Source: Rhynchopus sp. YZ270_cl-10 (Eukaryota). Taken from it: a DNA stretch of 64,000 bases. The DNA is taken from positions 1,860,001-1,924,000 of the forward strand of contig OZ037835.1 in the NCBI GenBank assembly GCA_964035575.1, read 5' to 3'. Position 1 is the first letter of the stretch. Every line of letters starts with the position of its first letter. Below the pieces are notes generated by a model that saw only the letters and a list, made by a program, of their open reading frames with translations, ran no database searches and was not told the DNA's origin. A program made the position numbers and the translations under genes. Shown here in pieces: positions 7,573-43,485 of this stretch.

Positions 7573-8200
7573 GACATGCTCACGTACCTCGTGCCTTCTA
7601 CCCCCACCTGCGTGTGTTAGCTGCTCTGGAGGTGGTGGTGTTTCAGTTGTACTGGGATGCTTTTATTGTGAACGAGATAAAACAAAGAGCTTGCGTTTCT
7701 TTTATGGAACAGATGTTATTCTCCTCCCCGTAAACACCACTTTCAATGAGAAAAAACCATTTTCTTCTCCTTATTTCTTCCACATTCACTGATTTTTGTG
7801 TTCGCTAATTTTTAAATCAAAAAGCTTTGTCATCCCTGAGTTGGGTAGCCCTGTGTTAAAAAGCCAATTTCCTTCTACCCTCATAGCAAGAATCATGCTT
7901 TTAACAACTCTTTGCCTGCCCCCTTTTTTCCCCCTCTCGATGGTTTTTGTGTTTGCTCATTTTTATCAAAAAGCTTTCCCTCCGCTAACCAGCGATATGT
8001 CTGCCAACCTTCTTCGTGTGCGTCGTAAACCCTTTCCTCGACCATCTCAGTGGCGATGCGAGGCCTCTTGGCAGGCCCTTTCCTCGTCAGGAAGTATTCG
8101 TGTGTGTTGCATGTGTGCCCTTCGTCCTCTCTCCTCACCCACAACCTCTGCACAAAAAGAAACCAACACAAAAGACACAGCAACAATACACAAACACACA

Positions 8201-22600: not shown

Positions 22601-23780
22601 TCTTCACCGCACCGTTGCACCAGCGTCGCTTCTTCTTCCTTGCCTTGCCTCTGGGGATGTGCCTCCTCGCGATGTTCTTCACCATCCCTGCCCACTTGGC
22701 TGCTGCGGTGCTGATCGAGCCCCACTTCATTGCGTCTGGCGAACTGCGCTCCATCTCCTTGGTGAAGCCTGCCCAGTTCGCCTTCTTCCAGTTCCACAGC
22801 TCTTTTTTGAGTTTCACCTCAGGATGTGTTGGAGGTGTTTGGGCGTTCGCTTGCACTTCAAACTCTATCGGCAGGTGGTCGGAGTTGAGCGTTTCCCGTG
22901 TTTGCCAATTGGGGTCGGCCCAGTCTCTGTCTGCGAAGACCACATCTGGTGACGTTTTGGTACCGCGCTGGATCCGCGTTGCTTCCTTCTTGTTCCAGCA
23001 TCGCATGTTGTTCCCCAACGCCCAGTCGTGTAGGTCAGTTCCCGTTTGGTTGGGAATTTTCGCCTGACTCCACGCCTGGTGATGTGCGTTGATGTCCCCT
23101 GCGATCACGCAGCCCTCTCCCGTTGGCAGATCCTGTGTTGCGAAGTCATCCTCTCTCTGGTCCCCCTTCTGTAGACCCACCCCGCTCGGCCGGTACACAT
23201 TCGTGAAGAGCACGCCCTCCACAATCACATCCAGCCTCTCTGTGGTCTCCCACGCTTCGAAGGGTTGTTCTGTCGCACGCAAGTTCTTCTTCACCAGTGT
23301 CGCAATCCCTCCCCCATGCGTCTCGCTGATGTCTTTTTTTCGAGCTACCGTTCGCACCCGCAGGAAAGTCCTGTACCCGTCAAAGTTCAGCTTGCCCGTT
23401 TGCGCCGCCATGAGTTCTTGGAGGTGTACTACATCGTACTTCTCCTTCTCCAGGACCTGCTTCAGCTCCCCTTTCTTCGGGCCCGTCAGCCCCCCCGCAT
23501 TCCAACTCATGCAGCGAAGGGTTCTTGGTTTTGGTCCTTGCTCTGGTTCTGGCTCTGGTCCTGGCTCAGGCTCGATGCCGTCCTCTAGCAGTTGGTTGCT
23601 CTTGATGGTGGAGGAGGTCTTGTCGAGTGTGGGGTCTGTGTTCGGTCGACCTGAGTGGTGTTGATGAGTCATCCTTGGGTGTGCGTGGGTCTTCCACTTG
23701 TACGGAAGCAAAAAAGGCAGTAGCAGCAGCAGCACACTATCCAGCATTAACCACACCAACAGCAACACCAGACACAACAG
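19686..23780 (-). CDS. Element A ORF2: APE endonuclease - reverse transcriptase - RNase H - C-terminal Cys/His knuckle (start undefined; in frame with ORF1)
   Basis: APE: SWNAGG, LQE, AGDINAHH, SDHLPI. RT: KSPGADG, YRPIALTS, QTGFR, LDLDKAYD, GVPQGTVLSP, FADD, YLGV. RNase H: YTDGS, AELVAI, TDSQSAL, PSHVGVSGNEEAD. Knuckle: CNNC...H...C. Confidence 0.95.
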   Translation of the reverse strand: MLCLVLLLVWLMLDSVLLLLLPFLLPYKWKTHAHPRMTHQHHSGRPNTDPTLDKTSSTIKSNQLLEDGIEPEPGPEPEPEQGPKPRTLRCMSWNAGGLTGPKKGELKQVLEKEKYDVVHLQELMAAQTGKLNFDGYRTFLRVRTVARKKDISETHGGGIATLVKKNLRATEQPFEAWETTERLDVIVEGVLFTNVYRPSGVGLQKGDQREDDFATQDLPTGEGCVIAGDINAHHQAWSQAKIPNQTGTDLHDWALGNNMRCWNKKEATRIQRGTKTSPDVVFADRDWADPNWQTRETLNSDHLPIEFEVQANAQTPPTHPEVKLKKELWNWKKANWAGFTKEMERSSPDAMKWGSISTAAAKWAGMVKNIARRHIPRGKARKKKRRWCNGAVKKAQKQRDRELRRQQKEETLTVADGDALTELRRQTANAIRKAKREVWEDKCTKAVATSGAFRLLRELDGRADKAQSYPIKVKKEGQQEKQQLSTNKEKADALGEHYCSVSDGTGLPDAEQQTTAGSQGAEAPLTLEELDAALNVLEAGKSPGADGIHNEMLMHLGPAAKKGLLHVMNLSWKQGQLPKEWKKAILFPIHKQGKPEEDLESYRPIALTSTVSKVMEHVLANRLLQLMEDPNEATQNLHPKQTGFRRFRSAVDNLAYITQLAKDSAAKKEVPIILTLDLDKAYDKVKRGKILERLHQHQVPERYIRWLTDYLKHRTARTTVEGTRSEEYVMREGVPQGTVLSPLLFNLVMTEVAEILEGTTAHFCIFADDLAIMCTERTLEEATAAIQKVLTLLEEHLPKLGFTISRRKTFVMPVTEKGDRADIRKAKCEVKYADGAVVNRAQTVRYLGVELDDALTMQPQLAAVKTKFLKKLSLIQLMAGRDWGCDAHMLRQVYMTYVLPTITYALAVWGPALNEAGLETLEVLHRRGARVITGCNYYTKAEDLLWEAHLRKIREHVEFDAAALYERARRQLETPAECAMHSSDTKLTWLRSAKDTVEQTKMYRHDQPAMSQTHYPVAPWRWKEVLPKVDIRPYVAGFKKGTQTDAEARSLTEQTTAELPPADLHVYTDGSVEGGRGHGGAGIVVYPGDSDKEIATANVGAGRMSISYTAELVAIREALPMVEELHRTDHKHNTVVILTDSQSALRALETGPVKATGLLCDVWSALHRATTKVRVIMQYIPSHVGVSGNEEADHEAKLGTATYQAERASQKGRLQEEPLTLLACKAAIRAVCSSYTPQPASELYSTITADTPKGVSRPKLSTPELTRRGAVQMRLLRTERHPALFDYMGSNDVARCNNCTAKSKATLKHMFKVCSATKALRTDLLPNKSLKFLLLEQPQLCLKYISAAKLTEASLPELVRSNTY

Positions 23781-25871
23781 TCAGTACCGCATGCTGCGGC
23801 GCTTCTCTTTCTCTTTCCTTGGCGAGGGGGAGGGCGTCGTCGCTAAGATCCGTCGTGTGTTCTTGGGGGTGGCACGGTCACGTTCGTCCCGCTCCGCTCT
23901 CTTCCCCCTGTTCAGCTGCTTGGGTGGCGTCAAGCCCATGCGGAGGCGGCGTTCTTCTGCGTGGAGGACGTCCCTCGCACGTTTCAGCTGGCGTTCCTCC
24001 TCCTGGCGCACCAGTGCTGCCGCTGTCGCGAGATCCATCTCCTCCTCTCGCTCTGTTTCCCGCTTTTTTTTTAAAAAAGCCTCGTAAGAGGCTTCGGCCT
24101 CTTGCAGCACTGCCTCCGTCGCCAGCCGTTTCGCTTCTGCTGAGGCGAATGCGTTCCTCCTCTTCTCCTCGGCCAACTCCTCCTGGCGTGTCTTCTTCAG
24201 GATTTCGTTATACTCCTGCCACTGTGCTTCTTCGCGTGCCTTCGCTTCTGCCCTCTCCGCCTCTGCAGTGTCGAATTCACGGCGGCGGTCCGTCTCTTCC
24301 TGCCGCCTCTGTGCCTGCAGCCGTTCTTCTGCTTCTTCTCTCTGTTCGCGTTGCTGTTGTTGTTGCCTCTGCTGTTGTTGCTGCCGCTGCTGCTGTTGCT
24401 GCCGCTGCTGCTGTTGTTGCCGCTGCTGCTGTTGTTGCTGCTGTTGCTTCCGCTCCTGCGTTTGCGTGGGTTCCTTCTTCGCCTTCGTCTCCTTCTTCGG
24501 CGGTGCCGTCACCTTCACCTCCTCATCGATTTGCATCTCGCCTTCTCCTTCTTCTTCTTCTTCTTCTTCTTCCGGTTCGGTGCGTCGCTGTTGTAGCTTT
24601 AGGTCGCGCATCTCCGTCATCAGCTGGTCCAGCTGGCTCGCCATGCGTTGCAGCGTCTGCTGCATCTCGTCCTTCTCTGCCCGCAGTGCACCTTCTCTCT
24701 CCTTCGACTCCAGGAGTTCCCGACGCATCTTCTCCACCTCGGCGTCCTGTGCGGGGTAGGGCTTGGGCACGTAGTCCTGCTGTGCCGCCCTTCCTTCCTC
24801 TTTTCCTTTTCCTTTTTTATTTGCGGCGTCAAACAGCCACCCTTCTTTGGTACGGTCGTACCGACGGAAGGTCAGCACGTCCTCCCCCACCACTACCGGC
24901 TTCAGCGTCCCCGGCGGTGCGCCCCGGACGAGAAGCACCCTGTGCGTGCCGTGCTTGCCGGTCCTCACCAACTCCGGCTCCCACGCGTGCTGCTCGCTCA
25001 GGATTGCCCGCACTCCGTTCTTCGACAGCGAGAGAGGCAGCCCGTCCACCACCCACATCTCTGCCCAGAGGTTCGTCTTCCCCTGCTCGCCCAACACCTT
25101 GCTGGCCTGCTCCTGTGTGGTGCCTTCCGGAACCGCGACGCCGAGTCCGCCCCGCGACAGCAGCACCACTCGCCCGCTCAGCTCGGTGGCCTGGTTCCGC
25201 GCCGTCTCCAGGTTCACTGTGCTCGGTAGCGGCGTCACCCGGTCGCCACCCCGTCCCGACCCGTTGGTGAAGAACGGCCTGGCGAAGAAGCCGTCATCGC
25301 CGCTTCCTGCCAGCACGTCCTTCACCTGCGCGCCGTCTACTCCAATCTTAAAAGCCGCCGTCTTTGCGGCTGGCTTCCCCTTCTTCGCCTTCAGCTCCAC
25401 GGCGGTCTGCACCTCGCCTCCGTGTGCCTTCACCCATGCACATGCTGCGGCACGGGTCACGCTGTTGCGGCTTTCCACCACAACGTATTTGGTTTGGGGC
25501 AATGCCCCCTGGTGCTGCTTTGCACCCGCCGTCTTGTGCACCGCCTGTACGGTGCTGACTGAGCACAGGAACCGGCGCTCCGTCCTCATCTCCTCCCCCC
25601 GCACCGTCACGAGGGAGATCAGTGGGGCCGCCAACCCCTGTGGTTTGTCGGCCGGGGCTACGAGTACCCCTGCCGTGTGCTGGTGCTGCGGCTTCTGCAG
25701 CGCTTCCTCCACTTCCTTACGGCTGCACCACAGGATGCCTCCGTTTTTCTTAAAATCAGCCAAGTTGGCTGCGAGTCGGCTGTCAGGAAAGTCCTCAGCC
25801 CGGGGTCTCCACATCGCCCCTGCCACCTCTTCGTCAGCCTTCTTCATCGTCTGCTGTCCAGAGGACCCCAT
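23781..25871 (-). CDS. Element A ORF1 (696 aa; globular N-half, coiled-coil/polyQ C-half)
   Basis: Long ORF directly upstream of ORF2 inside the TSD-bounded element; E/Q/R-rich C-terminal half. Confidence 0.85.
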   Translation of the reverse strand: MGSSGQQTMKKADEEVAGAMWRPRAEDFPDSRLAANLADFKKNGGILWCSRKEVEEALQKPQHQHTAGVLVAPADKPQGLAAPLISLVTVRGEEMRTERRFLCSVSTVQAVHKTAGAKQHQGALPQTKYVVVESRNSVTRAAACAWVKAHGGEVQTAVELKAKKGKPAAKTAAFKIGVDGAQVKDVLAGSGDDGFFARPFFTNGSGRGGDRVTPLPSTVNLETARNQATELSGRVVLLSRGGLGVAVPEGTTQEQASKVLGEQGKTNLWAEMWVVDGLPLSLSKNGVRAILSEQHAWEPELVRTGKHGTHRVLLVRGAPPGTLKPVVVGEDVLTFRRYDRTKEGWLFDAANKKGKGKEEGRAAQQDYVPKPYPAQDAEVEKMRRELLESKEREGALRAEKDEMQQTLQRMASQLDQLMTEMRDLKLQQRRTEPEEEEEEEEGEGEMQIDEEVKVTAPPKKETKAKKEPTQTQERKQQQQQQQQRQQQQQRQQQQQRQQQQQRQQQQQREQREEAEERLQAQRRQEETDRRREFDTAEAERAEAKAREEAQWQEYNEILKKTRQEELAEEKRRNAFASAEAKRLATEAVLQEAEASYEAFLKKKRETEREEEMDLATAAALVRQEEERQLKRARDVLHAEERRLRMGLTPPKQLNRGKRAERDERDRATPKNTRRILATTPSPSPRKEKEKRRSMRY

Positions 25872-26714
25872 CGTGGAGGGGGGTGGCTTTTTTGGGGGGA
25901 GGGGGGGAGCAGTTGGGATGTGCTCAGGGTTAATTCTTGATTCACTGTGTCCTCCTTATTCGTGGAATCGGATGTAAATAACAAAGTGTTTTTATGTGGG
26001 TGGTGTCAATCATGACGTCAATTCGCGTACACAAAAGTGTGCAGTGGCCAGAAGACAAGCTTGAATATATTATTTTCATCATGTTCTTAGGTGGCGGCTC
26101 TCCGATTCAGGCACCCCTACCGTAATAGGCACACCTTCACCGTGCCCGTCCCCAGGCCAAAGCCGAACGGGGTCCGCCATAGGGTCTTGAGAGCGCCGAC
26201 TTTGGGTACGTTAATCCCTTACCATACCTACTCATCGACGGAGCTGTGCGTTATGGGTAAGGAGTGCTCTTAGAGCCCACCTCGGGGTCGCTCATGTATC
26301 CCCCCCAAAGGTATTGTCCCACGGGCGGTCGCAGGGCTCTAGTTCATCCCCCCATACGTCCCCGGCACAAGGCCTTCGCGCGGTCAAAGGAATCCCATCA
26401 TACCCCCCCTACCTACTAGGAACATACCTCCACGACTGGATGCAGTTTTAGGTCATACCCAGGACCTGGGGGGGGTGTTTTTGTTTCATAAAAAGCTCCA
26501 ACAATTTTGTAGAATCTGCCAAAGGGAGTGGGGTTTCGTGTGTTTAGCATTTGAGTCGATGACAGACACCCCAGACTGTTTTTCCGCTTTCAGGTCGCAA
26601 CAGTGCAGGGAAGTGTCCCAAAACGATTTTCTGGGGGGTTTTGCGTGTAAATAGGGTCAGCACACTGGTGGGTCCGTGCTGTTTTTTCCACAGAACCGAC
26701 ATGTGGGACATGTC

Positions 26715-31958: not shown

Positions 31959-32866
31959 AGCAGCTCCGCTGTGACAGCTGCTTCACTCAGCTGCACAACT
32001 CACTGAGGTGTGCCTTCGAATATCGCCGCCCCTTTGGTCCCCATCTCGACGGCAGCGGCCTCACCCACGCATTCTCTTTCAGGATGCACGACAAAATAGA
32101 TTGACGATGCTTTTGCTGTGGGGTGGATGCGTACAACTAACAAACTCACCCCCTGTTTCGTTCCCCGTTTTCCTGTGTGGGTGAAGATAGCTATTGACAC
32201 CGTAGTACTTGCCGTTGTGAGAGGGGTGGGGTGGAGAGGTGGGGTGGGGGCAAAAGGCATGTTTTTGTTTCATAAAAAGCTCCAACAATTTTGTAGAATC
32301 TGCCAAAGGGAGTGGGGTTTCGTGTGTTTAGCATTTGAGTCGATGACAGACACCCCAGACTGTTTTCCCGCTTTCAGGTCACAAAAGTGCCGGGAGGTGC
32401 CCACAATAACCCCCAAGACGACTTTCTGCGGGTTTTTGCGGGTGAAAAGGTGCAGCACACAAGTGGTCCTGTGCTGTGTTTTTTCACAGAAACGAAATGT
32501 GTGGCGTGTCCACGCAACGACATGTTTTCCATCAAAAGGCCCCCCTACCTCCACCTGTTTTCATACCCCTATCACCCTTCCCCTCGTTGTTCACCCACCA
32601 CAGCTCCAACTCCCACAACCCCACCACACAACAGAGCAACACAAAAGGAAGACAAAATGGAAGTAGTTATCAAAGACTGTGCAGACAACTCGTATGCGAT
32701 CGAGGTGGGTGTGGATGACACAACGGAGACGATGCGGCAGAAGGTGGCGTCTGCAGTGGGGTTGGCTGAGGACAGCTTCCACATGGGCTTCGGAGGGAAG
32801 GAGGAAGGAGACGACATCACGCAGCTGAGTGCTGGAGACGCAATCATTCTGACGAAAGCTAAGAAG

Positions 32867-32950
32867 GAGGGTGAGAGACGACGCGCCTCCACGGGGTACC
32901 CTCGGGAGACGCCCCCCTCCTCTATGGGGGGAGGCGTCTGCTAAAGCGCG
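32867..32950 (+). ncRNA. Candidate HDV-like self-cleaving ribozyme at the 5' terminus of element B
   Basis: P1 GAGGGU(G)/(U)ACCCUC, P3 GCC/GGU, L3 UCCACGG, P1.1 GG, 14-position P4 (32907-32939, one mismatch), J4/2 GCUAA, short P2 CGC/GCG. Begins at the first base after the TSD. Confidence 0.6.
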
Positions 32951-32987
32951 GGGAAGAAGGACGGCGGCGGGGGGCAGCCTCGACGCG

Positions 32988-35900
32988 ATGTGCGGAGGGG
33001 CAGGTGGCCAAGGGGGGGAAAAGGGGGTGCTGCAGAAATACCTGAGGGGCTTCGACATGCGGGTAAAGGACGCAGGGGGGAACGGAGACTGCCAATTTAA
33101 GGCGGTCTCGATGGCTGTGCACGGAGACGCCACGGCGCACGGGGGGCTGAGGGAGATGGCGGTGGGGGTGTTGGAACGGGAAGCGGAGAATTGGGGTGAG
33201 CACGTTGACGGAGGACCGTCCGCCTACCGGAGGTACTGCTCGGCGATGGCGAAGCAGGGGTCCTGGGGGGACCACCTGACCCTGAAGGCGTTGGCGGAGG
33301 TGCTGATGCGGGAGGTGTATGCCTTCTCGGTGAAGGATGGGGAGGTGCGTGTGCTGAAGGTGCACCCGAAGGAGAAGGGCAGCGGTGCAGCGGTGACGGT
33401 GGCGTACGTGGACGCATGCCACTACCTGTGCGTCCTCCCCACGAGCACGGGGGAAGAAGCCGCCGAAGACCGGGCCCGCAAGGCGATGGTGGGGGGTGCG
33501 TTGGAGGTGACGGAGAAGCCGTACACCGTGCCGCAACCGCGAAACGATGCGAAGGCGGGGACGGAGGGGGGCTTCACCCAGGGGGGAGGGAAAAAGAAGA
33601 CGACGGCAGCGCTGACATTGCTGCAATCGGAGTGGGTGGGATCGACGCTTGTGCCGTGGGGGGAGGTGGTGGATAAGTCGGAGGGGGTCTGTCTTGTGCC
33701 GCAGGGTAGAGAGGTAGAGGCAGAGGGGAAGATCGCGCGCACGCCGGGCGTGACGTGGGTGGGTTTCGGGTCCTTCCCGAAGTCTGGTGGGGAGAAGATG
33801 CAGTGCCCCATGGGTAAGCAGGGGAATGGGGGGAAGGTGAACGGGGCGGCGAGCACGGCCGTGTACGTGGTGGGGAGGCTGAGGCCGGGGAGAGGAAACG
33901 GGGGGAAGAAGGCGTCGGCGGCCGTCCAACTGGTGACGGTGTTTGTGACGATGAGGCCGACAGCAGGACAAGCGCAGGACCTGGTGTCAGCGGGGAAGAA
34001 GATGCGTGCGGAGGTGGGGTGCAACCTCAACCGCCCACCATTGTGGCAGGAGGGTAAGCTGATCTCCTCGGTGGCCGACGTAAGGGAGGACGTAGCAGAG
34101 CGCTGCCTGAAGCAGAGTGGGAAGGGGGGTGTCTTCTTCCGGATGAGACGCGAGCAGTCGGAGCATCTGCCTGTCGTGTGGTTGGTGGACGGGGTGGGGC
34201 TAGAAGAGGCCCAGGGGCTGGCGACCCGGATGGGGGGATGGGGAGTGGCGGCGAGGTACGAGTCCCTGGGGATACGGGTGAAGAAGGAGGATCAGGAGCG
34301 TGCAAATGCGGCACTCATGCAGGAGGGAAAGGCGCCCGAAGGTCGATACGTGGTGTCCGGTTTCCCGTCGGGTACGTCCGGTGAAGCGGTGATGGAGTCG
34401 CTGGCAGGCGCAGGGTGGACGGTGACGCCGCTGCGGAGGCTGGAGGGATGGCGTTGGGTGGTGGGAGCGAAGCTGGATCCGCCGACGTGGGCCATGGACA
34501 TGGAGGGGAACGGGAAGGGGCTGCTGATCCGCAAGGATGGGCATAAGGAGGGCGGGGGTAGGGCAACGGCTCCGGGTCCGGGGGCGAAACAGAAGGCCAA
34601 GGTACATACCGCACATGCGTCTGGTCCGACATTTGGTGCCCGGACGGCGCCGGCGGCGACAGCGCAGCACAACCGTGGCACTGGGCCCGACTACGGTTGG
34701 GTGTCCTGGGCTGCGCACGCACGCCAAGCAGCAACAGCGCCAGCTGCAGCGAAGCCACCCACTACCACATCAAGGACACCTCCACCAACAACAACAACAA
34801 CAACGAAGCAACGGACGCCGAAGGGTCAACCCCCAATGACGTCGCCCGCCCCATCACCTGAGGACGCAGGCGAGAAGTGGGCGGAGTTGGAGCGCCGGAT
34901 GGAGGAGAGGTTGGACCGCCTGGTGGGCGAGCGCCTCCAGACCCTGCTGCAGGAGACGGTGGCGTCGCTGACGGCCCAGTTGCGGGAAGAACGGGTGGAG
35001 CAACGGAAGGAGCAGCAGGTGTGGATGGCGGCCATGCTGGAGCAAGTGGGCAAGCTCTGTTCCATGCCGAAGGAGGCCACGGCTGCTGCGAGAGAGGACG
35101 CCGCTGCTGCTGCTGCAGCCCTGAGGCAGGAGGAGGAGGAGGCGAAGGCCGCCGCCGCTGCAGCCCTGAGGCAGCGTGAGGAGGAGGCGAAGGCCGCTGC
35201 TGCTGCAGTCCTCAAGCAGCGTGAGGAGGAGGTGAAGGCCGCTGCTGCTGCAGCCCTGAGGCAGGAGGAGGAGGAGGCGAAGGCCGCCGCCGCTGCAGCC
35301 CTGAGGCAGCGTGAGGAGGAGGCGAAGGCCGCTGCTGCTGCAGTCCTCAAGCAGCGTGAGGAAGAGGTGAAGGCCGCCGCTGCTGCAGCCCTGAGGCAGC
35401 GTGAGGAGGAGGCGAAGGCCGCCGCTGCTGCAGCCCTCAAGCAGCGCGAGGAGGAGGTGAAGGCCGCTGCTGCTGCAGCCCTGAGGCAGCGTGAGGAGGA
35501 GGTGAAGGCCGCCGCTGCTGCAGTCCTCAAGCAGCGTGAGGAGGAGGTGAAGGCCGCTGCTGCTGCAGCCCTGAGGCAGGAGGAGGAGGTCGCCGCTGCC
35601 GCAGCCCTCAAGCAGCGCGAGGAGGAGGTGAAGGCCGCTGCTGCTGCAGCCCTGAGGCAGGAGGAGGAGGTCGCCGCTGCCGCAGCCCTCAAGCAGCGCG
35701 AGGAGGAGGTGAAGGCCGCTGCTGCTGCAGCCCTGAGGCAGCGTGAGGAGGAGGCGAAGGCCGCCGCTGCTGCAGCCCTCAAGCAGCGCGAGGAGGAGGT
35801 GAAGGCCGCTGCTGCTGCAGCCCTGAGGCAGCGTGAGGAGGAGGAGAAGGCCGCCGCTGCTGCAGTCCTCAAGCAGCGTGAGGAAGCCGACGCTGCTGCT

Positions 35901-36968
35901 GCAATCCTCTGGCAGCAGGAGGAGGAAGCCGCCGCCGCCGCTGCTGCAGTTGCTGCTGAGAACGCCAGGCAGCGCGAGGGGGAGGCTGCTGCTACTACGG
36001 CCCCGACTGTCGCAGTGCCCACTGCAGCGCCCACAACACCCGAGATGCAGATGGCGGATGAATTGTTGGACACACTCCCAGACGGGAATGCCGAGGACGT
36101 GATGTCACCGGAGCCCGCAACGATGGCAGGTAAGCGGATACGTGCGGGAAATGGGTCCAGTGAGGTTGAGGAGCTGAGCCCGCGCCGCAGGAGAAGGAGG
36201 GCTGACACCATCCGTGGAAAGCCGGGGGTAGTCGTAGAAGTCGCCGAAGCACGGAACCGGTCGCGGTCAGCACCGCCCAGGGACACATCGCCGACTGCGG
36301 ACGTTGCTGGCGCCGGTGATGTGGAGGTAGTGGTGGCGTCCCCGAAGAAGAAGAAGAAACGCAGGAACATTGTGGCCGCTGAGAAACGACGGGAGGCACT
36401 ACGGGCAGCACAGGAAGAAGCGGCGGCAAAGAAGGAGAGACGTGCTGCAGCAGTGCAGGCACAACGTGAGCAGGAGCAAGGGGAGAACGCCGGCGCAGGG
36501 ACCCCCGCACCCACGACACCAGACGCCGAGGCACGGATGGACGACGCCGACATGGCACTGCCGGTGCAGACATCGCCAGACTGTGCGGCTGTCGAGGAGG
36601 ACGCGGAGTCCTCGCCAGCTCCCAGAGTGCCGGTGGCGCCACCTGCCGTGACCCTGGCGGGCAAGCGGGAAGACCGCAGTGAGTCCGGTGAGACGGTGGC
36701 GCTGCTGAGTCCGCCGCGCAGGATGCGGACGGAAGTCCCCGCAAAAGAGCAGGCGGAGGGGAACGAGAAGAACGAGGAGTCGTACGGGAACGCAGTGCTG
36801 GAGGCTGGCGACTCCATGGAGTACTGCGAGGAGGGAGGCAACGGCGCAGCCATCCCGGTGACTGTCGTGAAGGTAGCGGGGGACGTCATCGAGATCGCGT
36901 TTCGTCCCGTCCAGGGACTAGACAACAGGTTGGTAGGCCGCAACACCCTGCGCGATGTGGGGCGGTGA
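32988..36968 (+). CDS. Element B ORF1 (1326 aa from first ATG): OTU-like cysteine protease, conserved core, 15-aa Ala/Glu repeats
   Basis: OTU motifs GNGDCQFKAVS, SWGDHLTLKALA and AYVDACHY. About 18 copies of LRQREEEAKAAAAAA. Confidence 0.85.
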   Translation: MCGGAGGQGGEKGVLQKYLRGFDMRVKDAGGNGDCQFKAVSMAVHGDATAHGGLREMAVGVLEREAENWGEHVDGGPSAYRRYCSAMAKQGSWGDHLTLKALAEVLMREVYAFSVKDGEVRVLKVHPKEKGSGAAVTVAYVDACHYLCVLPTSTGEEAAEDRARKAMVGGALEVTEKPYTVPQPRNDAKAGTEGGFTQGGGKKKTTAALTLLQSEWVGSTLVPWGEVVDKSEGVCLVPQGREVEAEGKIARTPGVTWVGFGSFPKSGGEKMQCPMGKQGNGGKVNGAASTAVYVVGRLRPGRGNGGKKASAAVQLVTVFVTMRPTAGQAQDLVSAGKKMRAEVGCNLNRPPLWQEGKLISSVADVREDVAERCLKQSGKGGVFFRMRREQSEHLPVVWLVDGVGLEEAQGLATRMGGWGVAARYESLGIRVKKEDQERANAALMQEGKAPEGRYVVSGFPSGTSGEAVMESLAGAGWTVTPLRRLEGWRWVVGAKLDPPTWAMDMEGNGKGLLIRKDGHKEGGGRATAPGPGAKQKAKVHTAHASGPTFGARTAPAATAQHNRGTGPDYGWVSWAAHARQAATAPAAAKPPTTTSRTPPPTTTTTTKQRTPKGQPPMTSPAPSPEDAGEKWAELERRMEERLDRLVGERLQTLLQETVASLTAQLREERVEQRKEQQVWMAAMLEQVGKLCSMPKEATAAAREDAAAAAAALRQEEEEAKAAAAAALRQREEEAKAAAAAVLKQREEEVKAAAAAALRQEEEEAKAAAAAALRQREEEAKAAAAAVLKQREEEVKAAAAAALRQREEEAKAAAAAALKQREEEVKAAAAAALRQREEEVKAAAAAVLKQREEEVKAAAAAALRQEEEVAAAAALKQREEEVKAAAAAALRQEEEVAAAAALKQREEEVKAAAAAALRQREEEAKAAAAAALKQREEEVKAAAAAALRQREEEEKAAAAAVLKQREEADAAAAILWQQEEEAAAAAAAVAAENARQREGEAAATTAPTVAVPTAAPTTPEMQMADELLDTLPDGNAEDVMSPEPATMAGKRIRAGNGSSEVEELSPRRRRRRADTIRGKPGVVVEVAEARNRSRSAPPRDTSPTADVAGAGDVEVVVASPKKKKKRRNIVAAEKRREALRAAQEEAAAKKERRAAAVQAQREQEQGENAGAGTPAPTTPDAEARMDDADMALPVQTSPDCAAVEEDAESSPAPRVPVAPPAVTLAGKREDRSESGETVALLSPPRRMRTEVPAKEQAEGNEKNEESYGNAVLEAGDSMEYCEEGGNGAAIPVTVVKVAGDVIEIAFRPVQGLDNRLVGRNTLRDVGR
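35100..35890 (+). repeat. 45-bp coding tandem repeat (about 18 units, some 39 bp)
   Basis: Variants of ctgaggcagcgtgaggaggaggcgaaggccgccgctgctgcagcc. Confidence 0.9.
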
Positions 36969-39900
36969 CGGTGTGGTGCGGTGGAAGGGTACGGCACAGG
37001 ATTGGCTTCTTCGTGCGTAGTTGGAGAACGAGACGTTTTTGTGAAAACTGTCTCCCCAACAAGGGGTCAGCATCGTTTGCGCTCTGCGGGCTGTATGCTG
37101 TCGGGGACAAGGGGTAAGGGTAGAACGCGAAGGGGGGTGGGGCGAGGGGTCGGACACAGGGTGCGTCGAGGGAGGCGACGAGGGGCGTTTTTGGGCAGGG
37201 GGTCACTGCTGACATGTGGAGACGTGGAGGAGCATCCGGGTCCGTCGACCATGTCGCTTGGCACGGCAAACGTGACGTCTCTGAGGGCACACCCTGCGGT
37301 GGGGGAGTGGGATGTGGACGTTTGTGCTCTGCAGGAGGTGCGCCTCACAGAAGAAGAGATGAAGGGGGCAGCAAACGACGTGAAGGGGTATGGTGCCAAG
37401 CAGCTTCTCTTTGGTGCCCCTTGCAGACGAAGCCAGGGATCAGACCCTCTGCGCACGCGCACGCAGAATGGTGGAGTTGCGATCATGACGTGCGCTGACA
37501 TACCGACCAGAGCAGTACCGCCACAATGTGCCCAACAAGCGTGGAACGAATGCCGCTTTACGCATGCGCAGGTGGCATATGGGAGCGGGGGACGTAACAT
37601 CTCTGTGTTCTCGTTTTATGGTGTGTGTGCTGACAGCGACCGCACGGAGCAACTCCTGACAGGCATCTTTGAAGAAGCAGCCAGCCTTGGGGACATACCG
37701 GTGTTCATTGCCGGAGACTTCAACGTAGAGGCTAACGAAAGTCTAGCCATTCGAGCGGCCATCTCCTCCGGCAAATGGGTTGATGCGGCAGATACCTACG
37801 CACAGCAGTTGGGTAAGGCAGCAGAGAACACATGCTATACCTCCACATCGTCTGGCAGACGTATCGACTTGGTGCTGGCGAACCACGTGGCTGCCCCTGC
37901 GATCTCCAAAGTGGTGGTCTGGAAAGAGAGCTGCCTCCCGGTACACAGACCGGTGGTGTTGACGTTAGACCTGACGCGATACGAGCAGAAGGCACCGCAG
38001 GCACGCCCTCCCCTTTCTTTGATCGGCGACGACTGGACGAAATGGCCGGCGAAGAAGGAGAAGGAGCTTGCAGCGAAGGTGATGCAGGAGAACGCTGCCC
38101 CTGAAGCCGACCTGACGAAGATGTCGGTTGAAGATCGCTGGGCACGCTTCTGCAAGATTGCGGAGGACTACCTGCTGAAGAGAGGTGCTGCAGACTCAGA
38201 CCCGAAGCAACAACGCCACAGGGGGAGAGGGGAGGTGCAACCCGACGTTCTCCGACATCGGACGGCCCGCATGGACTGCGACACGCCGGATGCTGTGAAC
38301 CTGGAGACGGCTCAACTGCAGAAGACATGTCGTCAGATGGAGCAGCTCATTGGTGATCGGAGGAAGCGCTTCGGTCAGCCATCTGCAGAATCGTTGAACG
38401 AACGGCAGCTGTGGGCGAAAATCCGCAAGAAGAAGCATCTACTGAAGAGTGACACCTGGGACCTCGACCTTCCTGGGATAGAGGCGTTGTGTGGGCTCCT
38501 TGGCTGCTTGAAGAAGAGGGGTTTTGTCCTGCTGGAGCAACGGCGTCGGGCCCGCATCAAGGAATGGCGCCGCACAATGAAGGAACACATGAAGGTGAAC
38601 CCAGCGAAGGTGTTCTCGTTCCTGCGGAAGGCTACGTCGTCACACACCACGTTCCTGAAACGGGAGGACGGCACGGTTACAGCTAACCTCCAGGAGATGG
38701 ATGAACTGCTCATGGATGACCGTGCTTGGGGTGGGGTGTTCCGGATGTACGACGATTCCGAAGAACCTGCGTGGACGACGTTCTTTGATAGGTTCAAGGA
38801 ACACATTCCTGAAGGGACCCCTTGTGTATGCGAACCCCTGACCGCCGACGACCTCCGTACGACCATCGGCAAGATGAAGCGGAAAAAGGCGGCAGGCCTC
38901 GATGGGTGGAGGGTGGAGGAGCTGAAGGAACTGCCTTTGACACTGCTGGAGGAACTCGCGCGCTGCCTGAACCTGATCGAGGATACTGGGAACTGGCCCA
39001 GGGTGATTGCGAGGGCGTTGGTGGTGCTCATCCCCAAAGGAGAAGGCGAGGAGCCCCTGAAGCAGCGACCCATTACCATCACCAGTGTGATGTACAGGTT
39101 ATGGGCGGCGACTCGACTCCGCAAAGTGGCGACGTGGCAGGAATCCTGGATTCACGAGCGGCAACACGGCTTCCGGAACAAACACGGAACCGAAGACCTG
39201 CTGTGGTTTCTCTGTGCGAAGATGGAGGAGGCTCTGATAGACGACACACCTATCTATCTAGCCTCCTTCGACTATCAGAAGTGCTTTGACCGTGTTCCCC
39301 AAGAGATCATGTTCCAGCTCGTCGAACGGTTGGGTCTTCCCGACAACATGATGCGCCCCATCCGGGGTATATACAAGAAGCTGGGGAGGCGTTTCAAACT
39401 TCCGGCAGGTCTTGGCAAAGAATGGTTTGCGACGAATGGTATCCTCCAAGGATGCCCACTGAGCGTAATCTTCCTGAATGCGCTGGTGGCGGTGTGGATG
39501 AACGGGGTGGAGAAGGAAACGGGCACGCAGGGGCTGGCGTATGCTGACGACACCAACCTCCTGACGAAGACCCTCGACCAGCTGCGAGCGGGTGTCGCCT
39601 TCACCGGACACTTTGCAGACTTGACGGGACAACGCGTCCACGCGGGGAAGAGCACGTGGCAGAGCAACCGTCCTGATGAAGAGGAAACTGTGCAGATGAA
39701 CGGCGCGGATCTTACTCGCGTCGAGAAGTCGGAGTGCCTGGGGGCGACGGTGCAGGCCCGACAGGCTGGGACGCCCACGCTCCCGACGAAGCTGGAAGAC
39801 ACCATCGACGCATGCGGACCGCTAGCAGGTAAGGTGGGATGCCTCCCGCTGACTCAAGGTGAGAAAGCAGGCATCATGCAGGCTGCAGTGATGTCGAAAT

Positions 39901-41975
39901 CTGTGTACGGTATCACGGTGCAGGACCCACCTGGGAAATACGTGAACAGTCTTGCAACTGCAGTGGAGAAAGGGGTCCACGGCGTGAACAAGATGAACCG
40001 AAGAAGCGTACCGGTCATGCTGAATGTCTTCGAGAAAGGCCATCTGCTCGACCCCTCGGTGGCATTCGACTACAGAAGGATCATGACGTGGGCGGCGATG
40101 ATACGCAAATCGGATGAGATCTGTTTGCTGGTCGAAAAGTGCAGGTCACGTGCGAAAGCGAAGCAGGCGAAGACTGGAGGACCCATCGGGTTGATTGCGC
40201 GAGCCCTCAGCCGCCTTGCGTGGTCATGGATAGACACGACAAAAGTGAAAACGCACGATGGGAGCATCGTTGATGTGAAGACGGTAAGCTTGGGTAGACT
40301 GGGCCACGTTGTGCGAGAACGGATGTTCTTCATTCGACTCTCCCGTACGAAGACGACTGCGAAGGCCAATGGCAAAGGCAGAGCTAACCTGAAGGGTATT
40401 GAAGCGGGGGTGGATAAGGAGAAAACCCTTGCTCTCACCCGAAGCAAAACTTTGACGGATTACGAGGCGGGGACGCTGCGACACATTGTAGCTGACGGTG
40501 CGATAACGGGGGTGCGACTTGCGAGAGCGCGCATACGGGACTCGGCCATCTGCGTGCACTGCGAAGCGGGGGTGGACGAAAATCACAAACACTTGTGGTG
40601 GGAATGTGAAGCATGGAGTAGCATTCGTGCGGAGTACCCCTTGCTGTTGGACATTGACAGAACGACCTGGCCAAACTGTCTCGCTATCTGCGGCATGTGC
40701 ACACCGGACACACCTTTGGAATGCGCCCGTGTTGCAGACCTGCAGAAGATGATGGTGCGCATCCTCATCGCACGCTCCAAGTGGAGCAGACCGGAAGCGG
40801 CGAACCCGCGACTGCAAGAAGACCGATACCCGTGGACGTGGGCGCCGGAGTTGGACACGACGACGCAACACGCGAACAGTTTGGTGGACTACACCCCCCT
40901 GAAAAGGAGGTGGCCGTATGGACGTGCGCTGCTGCTGGCGTTTGCCTCCTGGCTGGGTGGTTTACAATGGAGCGACGAAGCTGGACGTGAAGTCTCCCAC
41001 ATGGAGCTGCTCATCGACTTCGAGGTTGCCACAGGGATGGACATCCGACCTGGGGACAAGACCGGCAGAATAGCGCCGAAGCTGAAGCAGCCGAGGGATG
41101 GGACTGGGGAAGAAGACAACAATGGGGAGGAAGACGACGGGAGTGGGGAAGACGACAATGATGACGACGTGGTGCCAGTAGCGCTGGCCCACAGAGAAAT
41201 GGCGAAGACGACCACCTTTGGGCATATGTTGGCTTCACTCAGAACCTTTTCGGAGAGCTCTCTCCATCCGGGGAAGGTGAAGATAACGCATGTTCTCGCT
41301 TCGTTTGGGGCGAACGCCATCACAGGCATCGACCGCCGTCCTATCTTTGCCGGCGGAGAAGAAACGTTGAAGGCATTGCGTGCGCTATACGATGCTGGTG
41401 TGGCGTACCGGCTGCAACGCAGCTCCGAAGGCATGTCTGAGGTGGAGCTCCGTGGTGGCGATAGAGCGAGAGGTACATGGATGGGGGAGTATTCTGCTGA
41501 GACGGCGTACCCCTCCACAGAAGTTAGGGGCAGGAGGGCACTACCATTCATCCAGCGGGCTGAACAGGAGACATCTGCGCATGCTCGCTACCGGCACCAT
41601 GAGCACGTGCGTCCAGGGGACGCACCCGTGAAGGCACCTGAAGGAGCGGTTCCGATCTTCCAGTTTGCGATATGTGTGCTGCACCGGAAGACGAAGTGTG
41701 ATGCCTGCTCGAAGAACGCCCAGGCAGACCTGATGCATTGCTGCTTTGCGCACCACTCCAACGACGACGGGTTACCGATCCGACACGAAGCGTGCACTAA
41801 GCATAGACTCTCGAGGTGCGGGAACTGTGTGCAAGAGAAGAGTACGCTGGATCACTGCTGCCGCCGCCACCACGACACCTCGAAGGGGCGACAGACGACG
41901 CTGGGAGGCTTCTTCAGGAAGAAGCAGACGAAGCAGAAGGATGGGCACAGCAGGGGCGGTGATGGACTTATGTAA
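36969..41975 (+). CDS. Element B ORF2: 2A-like peptide - APE - RT - Cys/His knuckle - C-terminal tandem Cys/His motif (start undefined; in frame with ORF1)
   Basis: 2A-like: LLTCGDVEEHPGP. APE: TANVTS, ALQE, AGDFN, RIDLVL, HRPV. RT: KAAGLDGW, RPITI, QHGFR, FDYQKCFD, GILQGCPLS, YADD. Knuckle: CVHC...HLWWEC. No RNase H motifs seen. Confidence 0.95.
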   Translation, partial: RCGAVEGYGTGLASSCVVGERDVFVKTVSPTRGQHRLRSAGCMLSGTRGKGRTRRGVGRGVGHRVRRGRRRGAFLGRGSLLTCGDVEEHPGPSTMSLGTANVTSLRAHPAVGEWDVDVCALQEVRLTEEEMKGAANDVKGYGAKQLLFGAPCRRSQGSDPLRTRTQNGGVAIMTCADIPTRAVPPQCAQQAWNECRFTHAQVAYGSGGRNISVFSFYGVCADSDRTEQLLTGIFEEAASLGDIPVFIAGDFNVEANESLAIRAAISSGKWVDAADTYAQQLGKAAENTCYTSTSSGRRIDLVLANHVAAPAISKVVVWKESCLPVHRPVVLTLDLTRYEQKAPQARPPLSLIGDDWTKWPAKKEKELAAKVMQENAAPEADLTKMSVEDRWARFCKIAEDYLLKRGAADSDPKQQRHRGRGEVQPDVLRHRTARMDCDTPDAVNLETAQLQKTCRQMEQLIGDRRKRFGQPSAESLNERQLWAKIRKKKHLLKSDTWDLDLPGIEALCGLLGCLKKRGFVLLEQRRRARIKEWRRTMKEHMKVNPAKVFSFLRKATSSHTTFLKREDGTVTANLQEMDELLMDDRAWGGVFRMYDDSEEPAWTTFFDRFKEHIPEGTPCVCEPLTADDLRTTIGKMKRKKAAGLDGWRVEELKELPLTLLEELARCLNLIEDTGNWPRVIARALVVLIPKGEGEEPLKQRPITITSVMYRLWAATRLRKVATWQESWIHERQHGFRNKHGTEDLLWFLCAKMEEALIDDTPIYLASFDYQKCFDRVPQEIMFQLVERLGLPDNMMRPIRGIYKKLGRRFKLPAGLGKEWFATNGILQGCPLSVIFLNALVAVWMNGVEKETGTQGLAYADDTNLLTKTLDQLRAGVAFTGHFADLTGQRVHAGKSTWQSNRPDEEETVQMNGADLTRVEKSECLGATVQARQAGTPTLPTKLEDTIDACGPLAGKVGCLPLTQGEKAGIMQAAVMSKSVYGITVQDPPGKYVNSLATAVEKGVHGVNKMNRRSVPVMLNVFEKGHLLDPSVAFDYRRIMTWAAMIRKSDEICLLVEKCRSRAKAKQAKTGGPIGLIARALSRLAWSWIDTTKVKTHDGSIVDVKTVSLGRLGHVVRERMFFIRLSRTKTTAKANGKGRANLKGIEAGVDKEKTLALTRSKTLTDYEAGTLRHIVADGAITGVRLARARIRDSAICVHCEAGVDENHKHLWWECEAWSSIRAEYPLLLDIDRTTWPNCLAICGMCTPDTPLECARVADLQKMMVRILIARSKWSRPEAANPRLQEDRYPWTWAPELDTTTQHANSLVDYTPLKRRWPYGRALLLAFASWLGGLQWSDEAGREVSHMELLIDFEVATGMDIRPGDKTGRIAPKLKQPRDGTGEEDNNGEEDDGSGEDDNDDDVVPVALAHREMAKTTTFGHMLASLRTFSESSLHPGKVKITHVLASFGANAITGIDRRPIFAGGEETLKALRALYDAGVAYRLQRSSEGMSEVELRGGDRARGTWMGEYSAETAYPSTEVRGRRALPFIQRAEQETSAHARYRHHEHVRPGDAPVKAPEGAVPIFQFAICVLHRKTKCDACSKNAQADLMHCCFAHHSNDDGLPIRHEACTKHRLSRCGNCVQEKSTLDHCCRRHHDTSKGRQTTLGGFFRKKQTKQKDGHSRGGDGLM

Positions 41976-43485
41976 CATCATCTCCACGATGTATTGTATC
42001 ACCTATCTCGGATAGGGGTGCATGCATCGAAAACGGGCCCCCACCTCTGACGAAAGCTAAGAAGTTCGAGGCCAGAGCAGCACTTCATGCGTTGGGTGAG
42101 GACATCACTGCAGAGAGGCTAAAGACTGTGAGGGATGCTGAGGTTGCGTGTTTGCTTCTGCAGGCGGAGGTTGCGACTGTCATTCCGAATCAGTTCTTGG
42201 CACAGACATCGTTAACAGCACTTGATCTGAGTGCTGTGTCCTGTGTGACGGAAATTGGTGATAAGTTTCTTCACCAGTGCACATCGTTGACGAGCATCGA
42301 CCTGTCTGGGTTGACACGTCTCACGCGGATTGGTACCCAGTTTCTTTCCGGCTGCAAGAGCCTCACAGCAGTAGGCTTATCATCATTTCGCAATGTTACA
42401 CACATTGCCGGATGCTTTCTTGCCCACTGCTGCAGCCTCACAGCAGTGGACTTATCACCACTCAGCAATGTTACACAAATTGATGGCTACTTTCTTGACT
42501 ACTGCAGGAGCCTCAAAGCAGCGGACTTATCGCCACTTCGCAATGTTGCATACATTGGTCGCTTCTTTCTTTACAACTGCAACAGCCTCACAGCAGTGGA
42601 CTTGTCAGCGCTCAGCAATGTTACACACATTGATGGCAACTTTCTTGCCTGCTGCAGCAGGCTCACAGAACTAGACCTGTCGCCACTCAGCAGAGTTGCG
42701 CACTTTGGTAAGGACCCTGCTTACGGCTGCACTTCATTGAGGAGCATCCACCTTGGCGGCTGCAGCAGTGCTGTGTCCAGTCGAGTATGTGTAGGCAATC
42801 TGAAGAAGTATGTGGTTGACACACTTACACCTCCACCTCCACCTCCGACACGTGGCAGAGACAAGACGAAAGCAGCCGTTCCTTGCTGTAGTGTTTCGTA
42901 AAGAGCGACAGGAGAAGCTGGGCAAGGAACGTAGAGCAGCTCCGCTGTGACGGCTGTACCCTCATCAAAAGTTCTAAACAAAGTGTGACATGGAGGGGGA
43001 AGCGTTCAACATATCAATCTCAACCACCATTCCGATTCTCGCGATTGTTGCCCTTTTTTCTGAATCTACAACACACACAGCGCATGCACGTTCAGATTAG
43101 TTCATAAGGGTTTGGAATACAATGACGCCGCACTCCTAGGTTTCCTTCTTATGTTTATGATTACATGCAATGCTAAAAGGAAATAGAACACCGTACCCCT
43201 ACTCCCATCCTTCTTCCATATTTTTTAATCCGGGGCGGGTTGGAGTAGAGCCACATTTCACCGGCAGGTAGAGGTGTGTGCGTTTCACCACCCGCAACTT
43301 TGCTTTGTCTAAAAGCTTTCACTGCTCTCCTTCCAAGCTTGCTCTGATACAACTTCAAAGTGTACGGCTACCTACAAAGGAAGCGGCTTTGGTGAGGTGT
43401 TGTTTTCCTTTCACCATGTTCACCCACCACAGCCCCAACTCCCACAACCCCACCACACAACAGAGCAACACAAAAGGAAGACAAA

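What the first reader, a model, noticed from the sequence alone, without database searches (positions are those of the whole stretch)
33050..33440. OTU deubiquitinase-like domain at the ORF1 N-terminus
Seen: catalytic Cys loop GNGDCQFKAVS, the WG motif and a His motif (CHY), all intact. Established: viral OTUs counter ubiquitin-based defence, and other cysteine proteases (Ulp1-like, Josephin-like) occur in some non-LTR clades. Inference: counter-defence or polyprotein processing. Its landing inside a UBL gene may be coincidence; the frames differ, so there is no fusion.
Basis: partly seen in the sequence, partly recalled or inferred. Interest (0 to 1): 0.7.

Follow-up and report, generated by a model that had tools for sequence, protein, structure and literature searches.

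The report
Protease-carrying retrotransposon targeting ubiquitin-like genes
A jumping gene, likely from a diplonemid-type protist, carries a domain predicted to be a ubiquitin-cutting (OTU) protease and inserts again and again at one spot in a large family of host ubiquitin-like genes, often in frame; the protease likely shields the element's own products from ubiquitin-triggered destruction.

Summary
The OTU domain is real: Pfam OTU above cut-off, and a confident model (pLDDT 92) matching OTUD5/1/3. It opens ORF1 of an intact 9.2-kb APE-RT non-LTR retrotransposon (32867-42045, 19-bp target duplication). Cys and His are kept in five related element families (28-58% identical), including one in Diplonema papillatum. 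The usual Asp three before the Cys and Asn/Asp two after the His are missing, so 'all intact' is overstated. The landing is no coincidence: all 12 other host-element junctions among 124 UBL proteins fall at the same codon, right behind the ubiquitin fold. And 6 of 8 other ORF1 records that include the element's 5' part are in-frame UBL-OTU fusions; this copy is out of frame by one extra G. An HDV-like ribozyme fold starts at the element's first base and would free its RNA. The OTU is older than the UBL target (0 of 41 relatives carry the UBL). OTUs in DNA transposons and one Symbiodinium ORF2p are published; an ORF1 OTU lineage with this targeting was not found in my searches or the scan index. 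Activity untested. New variant of a known kind; interest 0.6.

The parts
33009..33443 (+). OTU-fold cysteine protease domain, ORF1 residues ~8-152 (Cys35 codon 33090, Trp93 33264, His145 33420; His+2 is Leu, Cys-3 is Asn, Cys-1 is Asp)
   Evidence: Pfam; PDB sequence hits; model; Foldseek; residue positions; motif counts
32867..42045 (+). Full-length APE-RT non-LTR retrotransposon (family 1), no poly(A) tail, hairpin near 3' end
   Evidence: bounded by the target duplication; contigs of runs X1, X3, X4 begin matching at 32867; 3' fold
32848..32866 (+). Target-site duplication, 5' copy (19 bp); its last G is the extra base that puts this copy out of frame
   Evidence: junction read unchanged in runs X4 and X6
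42046..42064 (+). Target-site duplication, 3' copy
32867..32950 (+). Predicted HDV-like ribozyme (P1 7 bp, P2 4 bp, P3 only 2 bp, P1.1 CC/GG, long P4, candidate catalytic C at 32941)
   Evidence: own descriptor: the only hit in 64 kb on both strands starts at the element's first base; 0 of 3000 shuffles; 21 of 27 encoded residues shared with family 2, then 1 of 13; no Rfam match
32988..36968 (+). ORF1 (1326 aa from the Met shared with family 2; frame open from 32853): OTU, conserved core, Ala/Glu repeat, low-complexity tail
33480..34667 (+). ORF1 core region shared with family 2, D. papillatum P0216, P0148 and, without an OTU, the neighbouring Ingi-like element
   Evidence: held-out Ingi-like ORF1 E 3.9e-6; no Pfam family
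35103..35950 (+). Ala/Glu/Arg tandem repeat, likely coiled coil, length varies between copies
36969..41975 (+). ORF2, same frame as ORF1 after one TGA: APE endonuclease (37296-37922) and RT (39030-39680), no RNase H hit
37218..37244 (+). 2A-like motif GDVEEHPGP (His in place of the consensus Asn; sister ORF2 subfamily P0087 has the Asn)
   Evidence: consensus from PMC3708506 (passages)
32657..32866 (+). 5' half of the interrupted host gene: complete ubiquitin-fold domain, no C-terminal Gly-Gly
42046..42901 (+). 3' half of the interrupted host gene: linker and BspA-type leucine-rich repeats

Best explanation
The feature is an OTU-fold domain with a conserved Cys-His pair at the start of ORF1 of a recently copied non-LTR retrotransposon that inserts at one codon of a host UBL-LRR gene family, and it likely acts as a deubiquitinase that protects the element's proteins or translating ribosomes from ubiquitin-triggered turnover. 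Steps: (1, shown) the element sits in the sense strand of the host gene with a target duplication; (2, inferred) it is co-transcribed with the host array; (3, predicted) the 5' HDV-like fold cuts the RNA before G1 and frees an uncapped element RNA; (4, inferred) ORF1 is read from Met 32988, giving ORF1p with an N-terminal OTU that would travel with the ribonucleoprotein; (5, inferred) the Cys-His dyad removes ubiquitin from ORF1p/ORF2p or from ribosomes stalled on this awkward message (stop, 2A-like motif, long repeat); (6, shown as pattern, mechanism inferred) APE-RT reinserts at the same codon, and a G shared between the target's Lys codon and G1 gives the in-frame junction in most full-length copies. 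The OTU is an old accessory module of this lineage and not an adaptation to the UBL target.
For: Fold and family. Constraint: Cys, His and WGD are among 20 invariant of 135 columns across five families at 28-58% identity; 45 of 45 records with the Cys loop also keep the His (49 examined, 4 truncated or deleted). Element-borne, not host-borne: the five OTUs form one clade (SH-aLRT 99; 96 in FastTree); the D. papillatum ORF1 family P0216 has accession numbers adjacent to the RT family P0016 in four places, and P0016 is sister to this element's RT (88/81). A second, canonical OTU (P0018 family) sits before APE-RT and falls outside that clade, so likely two captures. Recent copying: 8 ORF1 records differ from the window by 0-1 of 660 residues. 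Targeting: 12 of 12 junctions at one codon with six different 5' truncation points plus full-length copies. OTU older than target: 0 of 41 relatives carry the UBL. Precedent: OTU/Ulp1 in Ginger1 and Helitrons (PMC2836005); DUB domains on ORF2p and a viral OTU reported to overcome 2A-stall protein loss (10.64898/2026.06.17.732966); Cys-His dyads occur in OTU-like DUBs (PMC10318531).
Against: No activity was measured. Both usual helper residues are missing (Cys-3 Asp in 140 of 146, His+2 Asn/Asp in 108 of 146 nearest OTUs), so activity or specificity may differ from cellular OTUs. The structure model was built on an alignment of 72 other OTUs plus one family member, so the fold is partly imposed. 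The substrate is a guess. The Ingi-like neighbour has the same ORF1 core without an OTU and 0 of 11 metagenome loci with related RTs showed an OTU (most are short contigs), so the domain is dispensable in kin. The ribozyme descriptor was written after seeing this sequence, P3 has only 2 pairs, and Rfam found nothing. No whole genome was available, so copies outside UBL genes could not be counted; family-2 copy P0013 lies in an intergenic-like flank.
Confidence: 0.5

Rival explanations
1. The OTU is a leader or processing protease that cuts the element's own product (for instance after the Met-x-Gly-Gly stretch in front of the domain, or between OTU and the next domain) and has little activity on ubiquitin chains.
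For: It is always at or near the N-terminus of the first long ORF. A Gly-Gly stretch precedes it in family 1 (MCGG), family 2 (MGGG), P0020 and the P0018 family (MRGG). The two families with OTU directly before APE show no NPGP-type 2A motif, while P0016, P0019, P0021, P0022, P0087, L023, L029 and L031 do. The altered helper residues fit a changed specificity.
Against: This element has both an OTU and a 2A-like motif, and a stop codon already separates ORF1 from ORF2. No Gly-Gly lies between OTU and APE in P0018 or P0020. The D. papillatum and P0148 ORF1s have no such Gly-Gly leader at the same place. L024 and L027 lack both OTU and an NPGP motif.
Confidence: 0.2
2. The domain is a weak or inactive OTU kept as a ubiquitin-binding module, for example to dock the particle on ubiquitinated chromatin or ribosomes.
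For: Cys-3 Asp and His+2 Asn/Asp are absent in all five families of the clade. The D. papillatum copy scores only 21-24 bits against Pfam OTU.
Against: Cys and His are invariant across five families at 28-58% identity and in 45 of 45 scored records; a pseudo-enzyme would be expected to lose them (inference). Dyad-only papain-like proteases are known (PMC10318531).
Confidence: 0.15
3. Protease and target are functionally coupled: uncut host transcripts give a UBL-OTU-ORF1 protein from the host gene's own start, and the OTU acts on or with the host UBL.
For: The junction falls exactly behind the last strand of the ubiquitin fold; 6 of 8 other ORF1 records with the 5' part are in frame; the ribozyme region is open in the ORF1 frame in two families.
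Against: The OTU predates the target (0 of 41 relatives with UBL). A one-base overlap explains the frame without selection. The ribozyme would cut between UBL and ORF1. The UBL has no Gly-Gly. This copy and up to two others are not fused.
Confidence: 0.12
4. The OTU is a host gene fragment picked up by chance by this one copy, with no role.
For: Nearest non-element relatives are cellular-type OTUs at 30-35% identity over full alignments.
Against: Present in all 8 sister records, in four further families and in D. papillatum, always in element ORFs.
Confidence: 0.03

Closest known systems
OTU domains of Ginger1 transposases and Helitron/Helentron RepHel proteins (PMC2836005, PMC6431247; passages read)
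   Same: An OTU protease carried by a transposon, proposed to act in the ubiquitin pathway during transposition; function untested there too.
   Different: DNA transposons; the OTU is fused to the transposase or RepHel. Here it heads ORF1 of a retrotransposon.
Symbiodinium necroappetens ORF2p with N-terminal OTU, and Josephin-bearing Dualen/RandI ORF2p (10.64898/2026.06.17.732966, PMC8557442; passages read)
   Same: A DUB domain at the N-terminus of a non-LTR protein, next to a 2A-like peptide; same layout as P0018 and P0020 found here.
   Different: One ORF2p noted in passing; no ORF1 location, target site or changed active site in the passages seen. Its supplements were closed.
Ulp1-like protease of NeSL and Utopia-1_TSP (PMC4640811; passages read)
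   Same: N-terminal cysteine protease in a target-specific non-LTR element.
   Different: Different protease fold, restriction-like endonuclease, RNA-gene targets (spliced leader, U2).
Ingi/RIME and L1Tc insertion hot spot in trypanosome RHS genes (PMC7563717), with the L1Tc HDV-like ribozyme and 2A (PMC3185411, PMC3708506; passages read)
   Same: Euglenozoan APE-type element that inserts at one site in the 5' coding region of a protein-coding multigene family; 5' HDV-like ribozyme; 2A-like motif before APE.
   Different: RHS insertions are described as giving stops or frameshifts; here most full-length copies are in frame. This element has a separate ORF1 with an OTU, no RNase H, no poly(A), and an RT only 25% identical to the Ingi-like element in the same window.
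Human OTUD5/DUBA, OTUD1, OTUD3; yeast Otu2
   Same: Same fold (TM 0.73-0.77), Cys, Trp and His in register.
   Different: 19-24% identity (13% for Otu2); lacks Cys-3 Asp and His+2 Asn/Asp.

Membership tests
OTU-like cysteine protease (Pfam PF02338) | Profile score above the curated cut-off | tested here: met
   39.8 and 43.6 bits against 23.3
OTU-like cysteine protease (Pfam PF02338) | OTU fold | tested here: met
   pLDDT 92, pTM 0.86; top seven Foldseek rows are OTUD5/1/3; model used an OTU-rich alignment
OTU-like cysteine protease (Pfam PF02338) | Catalytic Cys and His in register | tested here: met
   Cys35 and His145 invariant in a 74-row alignment and aligned to OTUD5
Canonical OTUD1/3/5-type deubiquitinase | Asn/Asp two residues after the His (third triad residue) | tested here: not met
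   Leu here; Val/Met, Arg, Gly, Cys in the four sister families; Asn/Asp in 108 of 146 nearest OTUs
Canonical OTUD1/3/5-type deubiquitinase | Asp three residues before the Cys (DGNC loop) | tested here: not met
   NGDC here; Asp in 140 of 146
Canonical OTUD1/3/5-type deubiquitinase | Cleaves ubiquitin conjugates | not testable with these tools
   needs an enzyme assay
APE-type non-LTR retrotransposon | APE endonuclease and RT in ORF2 with intact motifs | tested here: met
   PF03372 39.6 bits, PF00078 70.3 bits; GDFN, YADD present
APE-type non-LTR retrotransposon | Target-site duplication, no LTRs, 5'-truncated copies | tested here: met
   19-bp duplication and no terminal repeat in self-comparison; six truncated copies starting near element bases 3690, 5960, 6460, 6640, 8530, 9120
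Ingi/L1Tc clade | RNase H after RT and RT affinity to Ingi-type elements | tested here: not met
   no RNase H hit; 25% RT identity to the RNase H-bearing Ingi-like neighbour, which is a long outgroup branch
Ambal or another named Repbase clade | RT phylogeny with reference elements | not testable with these tools
   no reference sequences held; the resemblance to Ambal is recalled, and papers found only list the name
HDV-like ribozyme | Nested double pseudoknot: P1 from G1, P1.1, P4, catalytic C in J4/2, P2 | tested here: met
   own descriptor, single hit in 64 kb x 2 strands at 32867; 0 of 3000 shuffles
HDV-like ribozyme | Three-pair P3 and covariation support | tested here: inconclusive
   only 2 pairs in the fit; no family-2 DNA obtained; residue changes in family 2 fall on both strands of P4; no Rfam match
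HDV-like ribozyme | Self-cleavage before G1 | not testable with these tools
   needs in vitro transcription
Target-specific non-LTR element | Independent copies at one position of a repeated target | tested here: met
   12 of 12 junction proteins among 124 examined, plus the window
Target-specific non-LTR element | Most copies in the genome lie at the target | tested here: inconclusive
   6 of 8 other ORF1 records with the 5' part, plus the window, are at the site; flanks of the other two unseen; no genome held
Ubiquitin-like (beta-grasp) domain, host gene | Ubiquitin fold | tested here: met
   model pLDDT 78, TM 0.87 to ubiquitin; some paralogues carry precomputed PF00240
Conjugatable ubiquitin-like modifier, host gene | C-terminal Gly-Gly after the last strand | tested here: not met
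   LTK-x-x-K follows in the paralogues printed

The most novel reading that the evidence does not exclude
A retrotransposon that pairs its target with its cargo: it inserts precisely behind the ubiquitin fold of a 600-member UBL-LRR family so that transcripts escaping the ribozyme are capped by the host gene's own trans-splicing and translated as UBL-OTU-ORF1, while cut transcripts serve as templates; the altered OTU acts on or is regulated by the host UBL and may blunt a ubiquitin-linked LRR defence system.
Probability: 0.12. Interest if true: 0.88.

Novelty: new variant of a known kind. Interest (0 to 1): 0.6.

Why it matters
Transposon-borne deubiquitinase domains have been noted since 2010 but, in the passages I read, never tested. 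This family gives a clean test case: young intact copies, a small well-folded domain, a relative in the named model species Diplonema papillatum, and sister elements without the domain. It also adds a second euglenozoan case of an APE-type element aimed at one codon of a protein-coding gene family, after Ingi in RHS genes, here with in-frame fusions that join a host ubiquitin fold to an element protease. The missing helper residues make its specificity an open biochemical question.

Tried and rejected
Viral origin: 22 viral loci with OTUs are only 22-31% identical, keep the DGNC or DGDC loop, and none holds an RT of this clade; viral structures score below the cellular OTUDs (against 79). Whole-genome count of insertion sites: no genome is held. 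Expression: no RNA holder listed; this says nothing either way. Contig depth rises from the 5' to the 3' end of the element but is no copy number, so it was not used. Rfam: no family near its gathering score at the 5' end. Pairwise BLAST of the two ORF1s in the window was not significant; only the four-family profile linked them. A suspected RNase H-like domain in front of the OTU in P0245 and P0148 was not supported by a three-sequence profile, though the two regions resemble each other. A suspected SH3/Tudor-like ORF1 C-terminus and RRM-like core gave no Pfam hit and only Atlas scores under 0.8. I first took P0087/P0015 for the ORF2 of family 2 and labelled it so in the tree; one search shows it shares the start of the ORF2 frame with family 1 and then diverges to 66-93%, so it is a sister ORF2 subfamily and its link to family-2 ORF1 is not shown. 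No complex prediction was sent: an OTU with a ubiquitin fold would tend to pass by likeness to solved structures. P0093 (7147 aa, repeat artefact) was dropped from the motif counts, which still include P0216 and P0148, later recognised as element ORF1s. Scan index: nothing by place or sequence, two unrelated notes by words. Two papers sought were not held.

Full report
Observation. Pfam OTU scores 39.8 bits against a cut-off of 23.3. Solved structures found by sequence are OTUD5, OTUD1 and OTUD3. A model from a 74-row alignment has pLDDT 92 and matches those proteins at TM 0.73-0.77; viral OTUs score lower. The active site is not canonical. Among 146 aligned nearest OTUs from a search of 1.84 billion representatives (the three element rows and P0093 left out), 140 have Asp three before the Cys and 108 have Asn or Asp two after the His. 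This domain has Asn and Leu there, and an Asp one before the Cys, which only 5 of 146 have.

The element. The domain opens ORF1 of a retrotransposon at 32867-42045, bounded by a 19-bp duplication. ORF2 follows one TGA in the same frame and holds APE and RT but no RNase H. A 2A-like motif precedes APE, with His for the consensus Asn; a sister ORF2 subfamily has the Asn. Eight ORF1 records differ from the window by 0-1 of 660 residues, so the family is young. The closest named relatives of ORF2 are from Diplonema papillatum (42%). This suggests a diplonemid-type host, which is an inference; D. papillatum has unidirectional gene arrays with trans-splicing (PMC10161547, passages). The RT clade could not be named.

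The OTU belongs to the lineage. It is present in family 2 (54% identical ORF1), in a 15-member ORF1 family P0148, and in an 11-member D. papillatum family P0216. P0216-family accession numbers lie next to those of the RT family P0016 in four places, and P0016 is sister to this element's RT (88/81). Two more families carry an OTU directly before APE-RT (P0018, P0020). Family 1, family 2, P0216, P0148 and P0020 form one OTU clade (SH-aLRT 99 in a 38-row tree) with 28-58% pairwise identity and 20 of 135 invariant columns, among them Cys, His and WGD. All share the GDC loop and lack the His+2 Asn/Asp. P0018 has a canonical loop and falls outside, on a long branch. Of 49 records, 45 have the Cys loop and all 45 keep the His. 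The region behind the OTU is shared by the four ORF1 families and by the ORF1 of the Ingi-like element at 19689-25955, which has no OTU (E 3.9e-6, held out). So the OTU is an accessory module under constraint. None of 147 other top OTU hits carries this clade's APE-RT, and none of 11 metagenome loci with related RTs shows an OTU, most being short.

The target is not chance. The host gene is one of nine UBL-LRR copies in the window, all on the + strand, and of at least 626 clusters in the protein collection (120 listed). Its N-terminal domain models as a ubiquitin fold (TM 0.87) without Gly-Gly. I examined 124 UBL proteins (116 new and 8 found earlier). Twelve continue into element sequence, and all 12 switch at the third codon after the LTK motif that ends the fold, give or take one codon. 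A junction anywhere in the roughly 270 codons behind would have been seen; insertions inside the UBL itself would be under-sampled. Six are full-length, on six different paralogue sequences. Six are 5'-truncated at six different points, three of them out of frame; one keeps only the last 60 or so bases between two copies of the target. These records likely come from the same assembly as the window (shared contig lengths), so they are independent insertions in one genome, not independent genomes. Family-2 copy P0013 lies in an intergenic-like flank, and 0 of 41 relatives carry the UBL, so targeting is shown for family 1 and its sister ORF2 subfamily only.

Fusion. Of 8 other ORF1 records with the 5' part, 6 are single ORFs from the host Met through the UBL into OTU-ORF1; two start at the element's own Met. 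Two of the eight (P0001, P0010) are frameshifted later. In runs X1, X3 and X4 the assembled junction ends the target in AAGAA and goes on with the element's first G, completing the Lys codon in frame. The window has one G more; that form is read unchanged in X4 and X6, so it is no assembly error, though one of these runs may be the window's source. A one-base overlap at second-strand joining explains the in-frame majority without selection (inference).

Ribozyme. A descriptor for the HDV fold hits once in 64 kb on both strands, at the element's first base, and in 0 of 3000 shuffles. I wrote it after seeing the sequence, P3 has two pairs only, and Rfam has no match. Independent support: the translated stretch is 21 of 27 identical in family 2 and drops to 1 of 13 right after P2. 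L1Tc has such a ribozyme, proposed to release its RNA from polycistronic transcripts (PMC3185411, passages). It would cut between UBL and ORF1, so the fusion would be made only from uncut RNA.

Mechanism. Most likely (0.5) the domain is a Cys-His dyad deubiquitinase carried on ORF1p that protects the element's proteins or its stalled ribosomes. Shown: fold, conserved dyad, element location, age of the association, targeting, fusion frames. Inferred: transcription, cleavage, translation, activity and substrate. Rivals: self-processing protease (0.2), ubiquitin-binding pseudo-enzyme (0.15), functional coupling to the host UBL (0.12), passenger (0.03).

Comparison with print. OTU domains are known in Ginger1 and Helitrons (PMC2836005, PMC6431247; passages). 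Ulp1 is known in NeSL/Utopia (PMC4640811) and Josephin in Dualen (PMC8557442). A 2026 preprint notes one Symbiodinium ORF2p with an N-terminal OTU and cites a viral OTU overcoming 2A-stall protein loss (10.64898/2026.06.17.732966, passages); its supplements were closed and may list more. Ingi/RIME insert at a hot spot in RHS genes (PMC7563717). Dyad-only sites occur in OTU-like enzymes (PMC10318531); PMC4822132, PMC3708506, PMC12278014 and PMC5753468 were seen as passages. Searches found no OTU in a non-LTR ORF1 and no element aimed at UBL-LRR genes; searches covered Ambal, diplonemid elements, ribozymes and RHS. Repbase reports and the Kojima 2020 review were not available, and I recall, unchecked, that Repbase may hold OTU-bearing elements.

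Verdict. Real feature, partly misread. OTU in a retrotransposon is a known kind of cargo. The ORF1 location with a changed active site across a diplonemid-associated lineage, the single-codon targeting of a UBL-LRR family and the in-frame UBL-OTU fusions make it a new variant. Interest 0.6; most novel reading 0.12 likely, 0.88 if true.

Noticed in passing
window 19689-25955, minus strand: A second, Ingi-like element (APE, RT, RNase H; 2A-like GIEPEPGP) in the same UBL-LRR array. Unlike trypanosome Ingi it has a separate ORF1, in frame before ORF2 with one TGA between, homologous to the ORF1 core of the OTU element but without an OTU. No duplication or ribozyme fit was found at its ends.
   Followed up: partly
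proteins P0320, P0375 (8 and 7 members); P0338: UBL-LRR paralogues broken at a second fixed site about 22 codons behind the first, two of them going on into the same foreign peptide; it matches neither element in the window. A further site-preferring element is likely.
   Followed up: partly
proteins P0358, P0385, P0393, P0289, P0362; P0383, P0390: Paralogues that end inside the LRRs in shared foreign tails, and two that stop five residues after the main target codon; possible further targeted insertions.
   Followed up: no
proteins P0189, P0134, P0233 (also P0115, P0107): A separate OTU clade with a GDC-type loop in the three inspected and Val after the His; those three have a 2A-like motif upstream and one a PHD finger, so they look transposon-borne. 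Loss of the helper residues may recur in mobile-element OTUs.
   Followed up: partly
proteins P0087, P0088 against window 36969-41975: A sister ORF2 subfamily, nearly identical for the first 90 residues of the frame and 66-93% afterwards, with a consensus 2A motif; suggests recombination between subfamilies.
   Followed up: partly
proteins P0245 and P0148, N-terminal 110-130 residues: A shared unknown domain in front of the OTU (25% identity, E 2.5e-4 pairwise), absent from family 1; it looked RNase H-like but the test failed.
   Followed up: partly
window 36750-36965: The last 60 residues of ORF1 are conserved with family 2 and look like a small beta-barrel (SH3/Tudor-like, recalled pattern); no Pfam hit.
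   Followed up: partly
window 773-9682: Tandem array of four ankyrin-repeat genes next to the UBL-LRR array; the region looks like a cluster of fast-changing repeat-protein families.
   Followed up: no
protein P0370: A roughly 60-base 3' remnant of the element inserted in frame, leaving the host ORF open through the junction with about 20 extra residues.
   Followed up: yes
window 61064-62686, minus strand: Long open frames made of a tandem repeat of about 30 codons; not examined.
   Followed up: no
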